A model generated the notes under the pieces. It was not told the origin of the DNA and did no database searches. It saw only the letters and a list, made by a program, of their open reading frames with translations. Source: a virus (taxonomy: Duplodnaviria; Heunggongvirae; Uroviricota; Caudoviricetes). From it: a stretch of DNA of 38,555 bases. The stretch lies in IMG/VR virus record IMGVR_UViG_2537562091_000004; one strand, given 5' to 3'. Below are positions 11,431 through 12,051 of this stretch, piece after piece. The translations under genes and the position numbers were made by a program. Position 1 is the first letter of the stretch. Each line of letters starts with the position of its first letter.

Positions 11431-12051
11431 ATGAAAGATCAAGATGTTAGGTTCGCGGTGCATCATAAGCTTTTGAAAGAATCGCATTTAGATCCAGACT
11501 GCCTTGTGGTCGATGAATTTTCCATATCCCTTGGCGCCAGTAGAGCAGACATTGCTGTAATAAATGGTGTTATACACGGGTACGAGCTCAAAAGTGAATA
11601 TGACTCTTTGGAGCGTTTGCCTCTTCAAATCAAGCATTATTCTTCTGTAATGGACAAGGTTACTCTTGTCGTAGCTGAGAAACATCTTGAGGGAGCATTA
11701 AAGTTAATCCCAGGTTGGTGGGGCGTTAAAACGGTTTCTGTTGGGCCAAAAGGCGCCATTCTTATAAAGCACATGCGTGGAGAAAAGCTTAATCGAAACC
11801 ATGACACATTGATGCTCGCTCAATTGCTTTGGAAAGATGAATGTATCGACGTACTTGAACGATGGGGCTATTCCAAAGGAATCAAAAGCAAGCCCCGATT
11901 TGAGTTATGGAATATTATTGCGGAAAATATTCCAATAGCGAATCTCAGGCTTGAAGTCAGAACAGCCTTAAAGAAACGCGTAGGCTGGAAAGTTAAGGCT
12001 TGGCAGGCTGAGTCTGCGCCAACCAATAAAGCTGTCTCACGACTAACGTAA
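11431..12051 (+). CDS. Hypothetical protein with a PD-(D/E)xK nuclease-like motif (AT-rich cargo gene)
   Basis: 206 aa; VVDEF...RADIAVINGVIHGYELKSE fits the D...(D/E)xK arrangement; lower GC than the flanking phage genes. Confidence 0.55.
   Translation: MKDQDVRFAVHHKLLKESHLDPDCLVVDEFSISLGASRADIAVINGVIHGYELKSEYDSLERLPLQIKHYSSVMDKVTLVVAEKHLEGALKLIPGWWGVKTVSVGPKGAILIKHMRGEKLNRNHDTLMLAQLLWKDECIDVLERWGYSKGIKSKPRFELWNIIAENIPIANLRLEVRTALKKRVGWKVKAWQAESAPTNKAVSRLT

What the first reader, a model, noticed from the sequence alone, without database searches (positions are those of the whole stretch)
11431..12051. PD-(D/E)xK nuclease-like catalytic motif in the 206 aa cargo protein
The N-terminal third contains VVDEF, then RADIAVINGVIHG, then YELKSE. 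This spacing (acidic residue, hydrophobic strand ending in D, then E-x-K about 12 residues later) is the hallmark of restriction-endonuclease-fold nucleases such as Hjc, YraN and Cas4. A nuclease in a prophage cargo position could be a defence effector or toxin.
Basis: inference. Interest (0 to 1): 0.6.

Follow-up and report, generated by a model that had tools for sequence, protein, structure and literature searches.

The report
P4 cII-type nuclease with beta partner
The 206-residue prophage cargo protein does look like a restriction-endonuclease-type nuclease, but it belongs to an already named family (satellite phage P4 cII, also called sce7726) and sits here next to its usual "beta" partner as a stripped-down two-gene version of known anti-phage systems.

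Summary

The protein is not new. It scores 184 bits (cut-off 70) on NCBIfam "sce7726 family", and its homologues carry Pfam PF26915 "Phage_P4_cII". It is 27% identical to P4 cII, whose nuclease fold was already listed by HHpred in a 2022 supplement.

Its convergent neighbour (11993-13060, -) is a "Beta protein" with a TIM-barrel fold. The beta/cII pair is convergent in 78 of 80 loci from many phyla, and the 3' ends overlap in 75 of those 78.

P4 gop-beta-cII and PD-lambda-2 are validated defence systems built around this pair or its beta component. The window lacks Gop and the HigB and HTH-peptidase genes, so it holds a minimal, untested two-gene variant in a low-GC cargo slot between the lysis and terminase genes. 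Nuclease activity and defence function are inferred, not shown.

The parts
11431..12051 (+). Gene for the 206-aa P4 cII / sce7726-family protein (stop codon included)
   Evidence: ORF. NCBIfam NF033832 at E 2.3e-54, 184 bits against a cut-off of 70. PADLOC model 'cll' at 4.3e-31. All listed homologues carry PF26915 Phage_P4_cII. 27% identity to P4 cII over 205 aa, E 4e-18.
11431..11805 (+). N-terminal PD-(D/E)xK nuclease-fold domain (residues 1-125)
11515..11517 (+). Codon of E29 (motif I acidic residue)
   Evidence: 100% conserved in 152 sequences.
11548..11550 (+). Codon of D40 (the D of the PD-type motif, strand 2)
   Evidence: 99% conserved. It lies in strand 37-45.
11584..11592 (+). Codons of E52-L53-K54 (the ExK motif, strand 3)
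   Evidence: E52 and K54 are 100% conserved. They lie in strand 47-54.
11626..11640 (+). Codons of Q66-I-K-H-Y70 (QxxxY motif in the helix after strand 3)
   Evidence: Q66 is 100% conserved; Y70 is 93% Y and 6% F. They lie in helix 63-73.
11806..11994 (+). C-terminal helical domain (residues 126-188), possibly a nucleic-acid or partner binding module
11995..12051 (+). Non-conserved, low-confidence C-terminal tail (residues 189-206) plus stop codon
   Evidence: pLDDT is below 50 for residues 189-206. Many homologues end at about residue 190.
11993..13060 (-). Gene for the 355-aa Beta-family protein (TIM-barrel fold), the convergent partner
11993..12051 (.). 59-nt overlap of the 3' ends of the two convergent genes
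   Evidence: Coordinates. The same kind of overlap occurs in 75 of 78 related loci, median 50 nt.
11360..11387 (+). Promoter-like site upstream of the cII-like gene (weak evidence)
   Evidence: 9 of 12 consensus matches. The number of sites in the region is not above shuffled controls.
13379..13406 (-). Promoter-like site upstream of the beta gene (weak evidence)
   Evidence: 10 of 12 consensus matches (TTGTCA, 16 nt, TAAAAT), not above shuffled controls.
11015..13464 (.). Low-GC cargo island between the Rz-type lysis gene (10577-11014) and the small terminase subunit gene (13465-14013)
   Evidence: GC is 36-43% inside against about 50-55% in the flanks. Other E. coli prophages with the same flanks carry other cargo.

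Best explanation
The 206-aa protein is a member of the phage P4 cII / sce7726 family. It has an N-terminal PD-(D/E)xK nuclease domain with a complete, invariant active-site set (E29, D40, E52-x-K54, Q66-xxx-Y70) and a C-terminal helical domain.

It is encoded convergently with a Beta-family TIM-barrel protein, and the 3' ends of the two genes overlap. Together they form a two-gene module that is conserved across bacterial phyla and moves on prophages, satellites and genomic islands.

The most likely function is a prophage-borne anti-phage or superinfection-exclusion module. In this model the cII-like protein is a metal-dependent nuclease effector. The beta protein senses infection or controls the nuclease, and each gene has its own promoter.

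Shown here: the gene, family membership, the predicted fold, conservation of the catalytic residues, the conserved gene pairing, and the cargo-island context. Inferred: nuclease activity, its substrate, the division of labour between the two proteins, and the defence phenotype.
For: Family membership: NF033832 at 184 bits against a cut-off of 70; PADLOC 'cll' at 4.3e-31; PF26915 Phage_P4_cII on all listed homologues; 27% identity to P4 cII, E 4e-18, with the motif kept in P4 cII.

Active site: E29, E52, K54 and Q66 are 100% conserved, D40 99% and Y70 93% in 152 diverse sequences.

Pairing: 78 of 80 genome loci have a convergent beta gene immediately downstream, and 75 of those 78 overlap at the 3' ends. 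The same arrangement is seen, and in P4 itself.

Defence link: P4 gop-beta-cII protects against lambda and P1 (PMC9122126), and phage orf184 triggers cell death through it. PD-lambda-2 needs its beta component for defence (PMC9519451).

Cargo context: a low-GC island between the lysis and terminase genes. The cassette occurs in 127 of 5426 complete E. coli genomes. Other cargo occupies the same slot in related prophages.
Against: - No biochemical or genetic test exists for any cII-family protein. None was found in the held literature.
- In P4 the known toxic component is Gop, not cII, and Gop is absent here.
- The cloned PD-lambda-2 fragment extends only 396 bp beyond the beta gene. If ECOR42 has a cII-like gene there, defence worked without an intact copy of it, and the nuclease would not be the essential effector in that system.
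- Beta has its own invariant acidic, His and Arg residues, typical of a TIM-barrel active site. Beta could therefore be the effector.
- HMMER finds no sequence-level match to any nuclease family or solved structure.
Confidence: 0.6

Rival explanations
1. The pair is a selfish addiction module, like a restriction-modification or toxin-antitoxin pair. Beta enzymatically protects the cell, for example by modifying DNA or another target. The nuclease kills cells that lose the element. Its main effect would be to stabilise the mobile element, with phage defence as a by-product at most.
For: Convergent genes with separate promoters are common in type II restriction-modification systems (my own knowledge). 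The pair is found on prophages, satellites, islands next to recombinases, and next to other defence or restriction genes. Beta looks like an enzyme, with invariant E16, D77, D161, R216, D239, D309 and H336 in a TIM barrel. P4 gop and beta were described as toxin-antitoxin-like.
Confidence: 0.2
2. The protein is a DNA repair or recombination nuclease, like MmcB, that serves the prophage's or the host's own DNA metabolism rather than conflict with other phages.
For: The closest structure is SPO1766. HHpred links P4 cII to PF06319 MmcB-like. MmcB is described as a PD-(D/E)XK endonuclease involved in mitomycin C resistance (PMC9578287). One database source names a homologue 'DNA repair protein MmcB-like'.
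Against: The protein does not match the MmcB-like Pfam model by HMMER at E up to 1, and none of the 29 aligned homologues matches it at E up to 10. The gene is strictly linked to beta, not to repair genes. It lies in a variable cargo slot and is absent from most related prophages. P4 cII is non-essential for P4 lytic growth.
Confidence: 0.08
3. The protein is a catalytically inactive DNA-binding regulator, as the name 'cII' and some 'regulatory protein' annotations suggest, built on a degenerate nuclease fold.
Against: Inactive derivatives normally lose the catalytic residues. Here E29, D40, E52, K54 and Q66 are 99-100% conserved in 152 sequences, 150 of them representatives no more than 50% identical to each other. 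The 'regulatory' label appears to be inherited from the gene name and not from a test.
Confidence: 0.05

Closest known systems
Satellite phage P4 cII protein (Pfam PF26915 Phage_P4_cII; NCBIfam NF033832 sce7726 family)
   Same: Same family by curated HMM and by pairwise alignment (27% identity over 205 aa, E 4e-18). It has the same E...D...ExK...Qxxx(Y/F) motif and the same convergent arrangement with a beta gene.
   Different: The window protein is shorter (206 against 264 aa) because it lacks P4 cII's extra C-terminal part of about 70 residues. In P4 the two genes are separated by a terminator-containing gap and do not overlap. The window locus sits in a lambdoid prophage, not a P4 satellite.
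P4 gop-beta-cII anti-phage system (Rousset et al. 2022, PMC9122126; DefenseFinder and PADLOC 'gop_beta_cll')
   Same: It contains homologues of beta and cII in the same relative orientation and sits in a variable cargo position of a mobile element.
   Different: There is no Gop, the 133-aa protein with two transmembrane segments that is toxic without beta. The best tblastn hit to Gop in the window has E 0.086 and lies elsewhere, and there is no minus-strand ORF of 20 aa or more upstream of beta. Beta is only 22% identical to P4 beta. The Gop/beta toxin-antitoxin logic therefore cannot apply as described.
PD-lambda-2 defence system (Vassallo et al. 2022, PMC9519451): HigB-like A, HTH-Peptidase_M78 B, Beta C
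   Same: The window's beta scores better on the PADLOC PD-Lambda-2_C model (4.4e-32) than on the P4 'beta' model (3.5e-10). In nature, PD-lambda-2-type operons are followed by a convergent cII-like gene (22 of 78 loci; 3 of 3 sampled).
   Different: Components A and B are absent from the whole window. The published system definition does not include the cII-like nuclease.
MmcB-like / SPO1766 (PDB 3dnx) PD-(D/E)xK proteins, Pfam PF06319
   Different: HMMER finds no match to the family model or to 3dnx. The window protein has an extra C-terminal helical domain and an obligate beta partner. That 3dnx represents PF06319 is my recollection and was not checked here.
RecB / Cas4 / AddB-type nucleases
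   Same: They share the motif order E, D, ExK and then QxxxY in the following helix (the family motifs are from my own knowledge).
   Different: There is no Fe-S cluster cysteine set; the only cysteines are C24 and C138. There is no sequence-level match and no helicase or CRISPR context.

Membership tests
PD-(D/E)xK phosphodiesterase superfamily | alpha-beta-beta-beta-alpha-beta core fold | tested here: met
PD-(D/E)xK phosphodiesterase superfamily | Conserved acidic residue on strand 2 and (D/E)xK on strand 3 | tested here: met
   D40 lies in strand 37-45, and E52 and K54 in strand 47-54. They are 99-100% conserved in 152 sequences.
PD-(D/E)xK phosphodiesterase superfamily | Metal-dependent phosphodiester cleavage | not testable with these tools
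   This needs purified protein and nuclease assays.
P4 cII / sce7726 family (PF26915, NF033832) | Score above the curated HMM cut-off | tested here: met
   NF033832 gives 184.1 bits against a cut-off of 70, covering residues 1-183 of the protein and 1-182 of the 184 model positions. PF26915 is precomputed on all listed homologues, including a 99% identical E. coli protein. PF26915 is absent from the local Pfam copy.
P4 cII / sce7726 family (PF26915, NF033832) | Significant similarity to the founding member, P4 cII | tested here: met
   blastp gives 27% identity over 205 aa, E 4e-18.
P4 cII / sce7726 family (PF26915, NF033832) | Convergent Beta_protein gene immediately downstream | tested here: met
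   In the window, cII-like is 11431-12051 (+) and beta is 11993-13060 (-). 78 of 80 related loci show the same arrangement.
gop-beta-cII defence system | Gop component (small membrane protein encoded upstream of beta) | tested here: not met
   tblastn with P4 Gop finds nothing significant (best E 0.086, at 2370-2516). There is no minus-strand ORF of 20 aa or more between 13061 and 13418.
gop-beta-cII defence system | beta and cII components | tested here: met
   PADLOC 'beta' at 3.5e-10 and 'cll' at 4.3e-31. blastp against the P4 proteins is.
gop-beta-cII defence system | Protection against phage infection | not testable with these tools
   This needs plaque assays with the cloned cassette.
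PD-lambda-2 defence system | HigB-like A and HTH-Peptidase_M78 B components | tested here: not met
   HMMs built from A and B proteins of related loci find nothing among the window's ORFs at E up to 10.
PD-lambda-2 defence system | Beta-family C component | tested here: met
   PADLOC PD-Lambda-2_C at 4.4e-32 and 2.2e-25.
MmcB-like (PF06319) | Match to the family HMM | tested here: not met
   hmmscan gives no hit for the window protein at E up to 1, and none of the 29 aligned homologues matches PF06319 at E up to 10. The relation appears only at profile-profile level and structure level.
Cas4 / RecB-like nucleases | Four-cysteine Fe-S cluster (Cas4, AddB) or an attached helicase (RecB) | tested here: not met
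   There are only two cysteines, C24 and C138. The family is a single-architecture protein of about 190 aa with no fused domains.

The most novel reading that the evidence does not exclude
The convergent, 3'-overlapping beta + cII-like nuclease pair is a self-sufficient two-gene immune module and the conserved core of a large superfamily (about 5,500 cluster representatives across many phyla). On this reading, the P4 gop-beta-cII and PD-lambda-2 systems are two decorated versions of that core. The cII-like nuclease would be the so far overlooked effector and the fourth gene of PD-lambda-2-type loci. Beta would be an enzymatic TIM-barrel sensor.
Probability: 0.3. Interest if true: 0.6.

Novelty: new variant of a known kind. 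Interest (0 to 1): 0.4.

Why it matters
The protein itself is a typical member of a named family, and the nuclease fold of its founding member was already listed in a supplement. The finding is therefore mainly a correct re-discovery.

The comparative picture adds something. The beta/cII pair, not Gop or the HigB and peptidase genes, is the part conserved from Proteobacteria to the candidate phyla radiation (CPR). It links two experimentally validated defence systems that are catalogued separately. A minimal form lacking the known toxic components (Gop; PD-lambda-2B) sits in about 2% of complete E. coli genomes.

This gives a simple two-gene construct for asking what the invariant nuclease and the TIM-barrel protein do. 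The mechanism of both published systems is still unknown.

Tried and rejected
- HMMER searches against the PDB with the single protein and with profiles of 29 and 70 sequences gave only chance hits: TAF1, a designed Kemp eliminase, PTK2B.
- The local Pfam copy has no model for this family and gave no nuclease-family hit, even when each of 29 homologues was scanned at E up to 10.
- The afdb50 Foldseek library was not available.
- I searched for Gop in the window and in 80 related loci and found nothing.
- I looked for fused domains in unusually long family members. They carry only low-complexity tails, probably from over-extended ORF calls in high-GC genomes.
- I tried to recover the ECOR42 PD-lambda-2 locus through a profile search with the B component. 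The listed hits were almost all environmental, with no E. coli entry among them, so whether ECOR42 has a cII-like gene stays open.
- Plasmid hits of the B component were HigB plus ImmA/IrrE pairs without beta, which shows that module also exists on its own.
- The original P4 paper (Ghisotti et al. 1990) is not held, so the genetics behind the name 'cII' could not be read.
- Full-text searches for 'sce7726' and 'PF14350' gave no functional study.
- One literature search was wasted on the loose term 'beta protein'.
- I considered and rejected the idea that the ORF is a chance reading frame: it has a strong ribosome-binding site, hundreds of homologues with the same start, and a confident fold.

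Full report
**1. Observation**

The ORF 11431-12051 (+) is real. It starts with ATG, encodes 206 aa, and has an AAGGAG ribosome-binding site 5 nt upstream.

The motif is not a chance pattern. E29, D40, E52 and K54 are invariant in an alignment of 29 homologues with 39-83% identity to the window protein. An exhaustive profile search found 5,480 cluster representatives at E up to 1e-3. I aligned the best 150 of them (each a representative of a 50%-identity cluster) with the window protein and P4 cII. In these 152 sequences E29, E52 and K54 are 100% conserved and D40 is 99%.

The conserved acidic residue in VVDEF is E29, not D28. A further motif follows in the next helix: Q66 (100%) xxx Y70 (93% Y, 6% F). 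D58, R62, E137 and R183 are also invariant.

**2. Fold**

An AlphaFold2 model built on the 29-sequence alignment is confident (mean pLDDT 90, pTM 0.84). Only the last 18 residues are disordered.

Residues 1-125 form helix 3-20, strands 25-32, 37-45 and 47-54, helix 63-73 and strand 76-82, followed by a helix and two more strands. This is the restriction-endonuclease-type core. D40 is on the second strand, E52 and K54 are on the third, and Q66 and Y70 are on the following helix. Residues 126-182 form a small helical domain.

HMMER-level searches against the PDB and against nuclease families in Pfam find nothing. The link to nucleases is therefore at the level of fold and active-site pattern only.

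**3. Identity**

The protein is not an orphan.
- It scores 184 bits (cut-off 70) on NCBIfam NF033832 'sce7726 family protein'.
- It matches the PADLOC model 'cll' at 4.3e-31 and phrog_984.
- All its listed homologues carry Pfam PF26915, whose name is Phage_P4_cII.

In satellite phage P4 (NC_001609) the left end carries gop (133 aa), beta (355 aa) and, convergently, cII (264 aa). RefSeq already labels these last two 'beta family protein' and 'sce7726 family protein'. The window protein aligns with P4 cII over 205 residues (27% identity, E 4e-18). P4 cII has the same E, D, ExK and QxxxF residues.

The nuclease fold of P4 cII is already on record. Table S3 of Rousset et al. 2022 lists HHpred hits of P4 cII to PF06319 MmcB-like (99.76%, E 2e-17), AHJR-like, NucS, DpnII-MboI and BpuSI_N. 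I found no discussion of this in the passages of the main text that mention cII. MmcB is described as a PD-(D/E)XK endonuclease involved in mitomycin C resistance (PMC9578287).

**4. The neighbour and the module**

The convergent ORF 11993-13060 (-) is a Beta_protein (PF14350, E 8e-56). It matches the PADLOC models PD-Lambda-2_C (4.4e-32) and 'beta' (3.5e-10) and is 22% identical to P4 beta.

The two genes overlap by 59 nt at their 3' ends. This pairing is the rule. In 80 genome loci with a cII-like gene, drawn from Proteobacteria, Firmicutes, Bacteroidota, Myxococcota, Nitrospirota, Elusimicrobiota, Patescibacteria and others, 78 have a convergent beta gene immediately downstream. In 75 of those 78 the 3' ends overlap, with a median of 50 nt. 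Independent look-ups show the same arrangement in an enterobacterial satellite-like element, an Acinetobacter prophage and an alphaproteobacterial chromosome.

**5. Relation to known systems**

P4 gop-beta-cII is a validated defence system against lambda and P1. Gop is toxic without beta (PMC9122126). A phage accessory gene, orf184, triggers cell death through the system (bioRxiv 10.1101/2023.04.06.535777).

PD-lambda-2 consists of a HigB-like protein (A), an HTH-peptidase fusion (B) and a Beta protein (C). It defends against lambda vir and requires C (PMC9519451).

The window has neither Gop nor the PD-lambda-2 A and B components. There is no tblastn hit to Gop and no minus-strand ORF of 20 aa or more upstream of beta. 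HMMs for A and B find nothing in the window. None of the 80 related loci has a Gop homologue.

However, 22 of the 78 loci carry, upstream of beta, a protein of about 400 aa that matches PADLOC PD-Lambda-2_B at E 1.8e-139 (HTH_3 plus Peptidase_M78). It is usually preceded by a HigB-like ORF of about 95 aa. Starting instead from the B protein, 3 of 3 sampled loci read HigB_toxin, HTH/M78 and Beta_protein, followed by a convergent Phage_P4_cII gene with a 50-nt overlap.

The beta/cII pair is thus the conserved core, and the upstream partner is variable or absent. The HigB plus ImmA/IrrE pair also exists alone on plasmids.

The published PD-lambda-2 clone ends 396 bp beyond beta. That is too short for a whole cII-like gene. 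I could not verify that ECOR42 has one at that position.

**6. Genomic context**

The cassette lies in a low-GC stretch (36-43% against about 50-55% in the flanks). It sits between the Rz-type lysis gene (10577-11014) and the small terminase subunit gene (13465-14013) of a lambdoid prophage.

The 2.1-kb cassette is present at 99% identity or more in 127 of 5,426 complete E. coli genomes, always on the chromosome, and is annotated there as 'sce7726 family protein' and 'beta family protein'. Prophages with the same flanks carry other cargo in this slot: YlcI/YnfO, DUF1398, DUF6979, Rha, or TonB-like proteins with hypotheticals. The cassette has no match among deposited phage genomes.

Promoter-like sites precede each gene, but their number is not above shuffled controls.

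**7. Mechanism**

The best-supported reading is that the 206-aa protein is an active PD-(D/E)xK nuclease. It would work with beta as a mobile two-gene module for conflict with other phages. The nuclease would be the effector and beta the sensor or controller, and the two genes would be expressed from separate promoters. The conserved 3' overlap could allow mutual transcriptional or antisense control.

The fold, the motif conservation, the family membership, the gene pairing and the cargo context are shown here. Nuclease activity, substrate, division of labour and defence phenotype are inferred.

The main caveats are these:
- Gop, the known toxin of the P4 system, is missing here.
- PD-lambda-2 may work without the cII-like gene.
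- Beta itself looks enzymatic.

The rival readings are an addiction module (restriction-modification-like or toxin-antitoxin-like), a repair nuclease, and an inactive DNA-binding regulator. They are listed with their tests in the rival explanations.

**8. Verdict**

The protein belongs to a named family with a previously recorded nuclease-fold prediction, inside a known kind of defence locus.

What is not yet in the literature I could search is threefold:
- The Gop-less two-gene form, as found here, is the commonest form: 56 of 78 related loci have neither Gop nor PD-lambda-2 B.
- The pair is conserved across phyla with a characteristic 3' overlap.
- PD-lambda-2-type loci carry the cII-like nuclease as an additional gene.

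Interest is moderate.

Noticed in passing
L095 3501-6373; L096 3181-6352; L098 3228-6415; also L046, L052, L059, L069, L086, L090 and others: PD-lambda-2-type operons (HigB-like, HTH-Peptidase_M78, Beta) are followed in nature by a convergent, overlapping P4 cII-like nuclease gene. This holds for 22 of 78 loci found from the cII side and 3 of 3 sampled from the B side. The published three-gene definition and the ECOR42 clone (only 396 bp beyond beta) do not include it.
   Followed up: partly
window 11993-12051, and 75 of 78 related loci (L013-L092): The 3' ends of the convergent beta and cII-like genes overlap (59 nt here; median 50 nt; typical values are 41-110 nt) in bacteria from many phyla. 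In P4 itself they are instead separated by a terminator. This suggests antisense or transcriptional-interference coupling, which was not tested.
   Followed up: partly
window 11993-13060 (-): The Beta protein is a TIM barrel with no specific structural relative. Y6, E16, D77, D161, R216, D239, Y240, Y263, D309, W328 and H336 are at least 90% conserved, and several lie on or just after predicted beta-strands. It looks like an enzyme, although it has been described only as an antitoxin-like factor.
   Followed up: partly
window 11015-13464 compared with other E. coli prophages (hits H29-H33, H47, H48): The slot between the Rz-type lysis gene and the small terminase gene is a variable cargo site. 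Related prophages carry YlcI/YnfO, DUF1398, DUF6979, Rha-family or TonB-like genes there instead of the beta/cII pair.
   Followed up: partly
window 7115-8961 (+): The SASA-family carbohydrate esterase gene is split into two overlapping ORFs (7115-8056 and 7801-8961). Other genomes have a single 1854-nt CDS, and they align to this stretch with 7 extra bases (2001 against 2008 nt at 99.7% identity). The window copy is probably frameshifted.
   Followed up: partly
window 5890-6139 (+): There are three phage-borne tRNA genes: CAT anticodon (called Met by ARAGORN, annotated tRNA-Ile in RefSeq), Arg-TCG and Arg-TCT. They lie downstream of a DNA methyltransferase gene.
   Followed up: no
L007-L009 5871-6620 (-); L047 5681-6370 (-): In an Acinetobacter prophage and an Oceanospirillaceae genome, the gene directly upstream of and co-directional with beta is a CI/LexA-like HTH plus S24 peptidase protein. 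It could be the prophage repressor by coincidence, or another HTH-peptidase partner analogous to PD-lambda-2B.
   Followed up: no
L001 8273-10134 (E. coli 14EC047): In one genome with an identical cassette, the adjacent small terminase gene is interrupted by an IS3-family element and the large terminase gene is frameshifted. That prophage is defective while the cargo pair stays intact. Two other genomes have an IS1 inside the cassette region (H14, H15).
   Followed up: no
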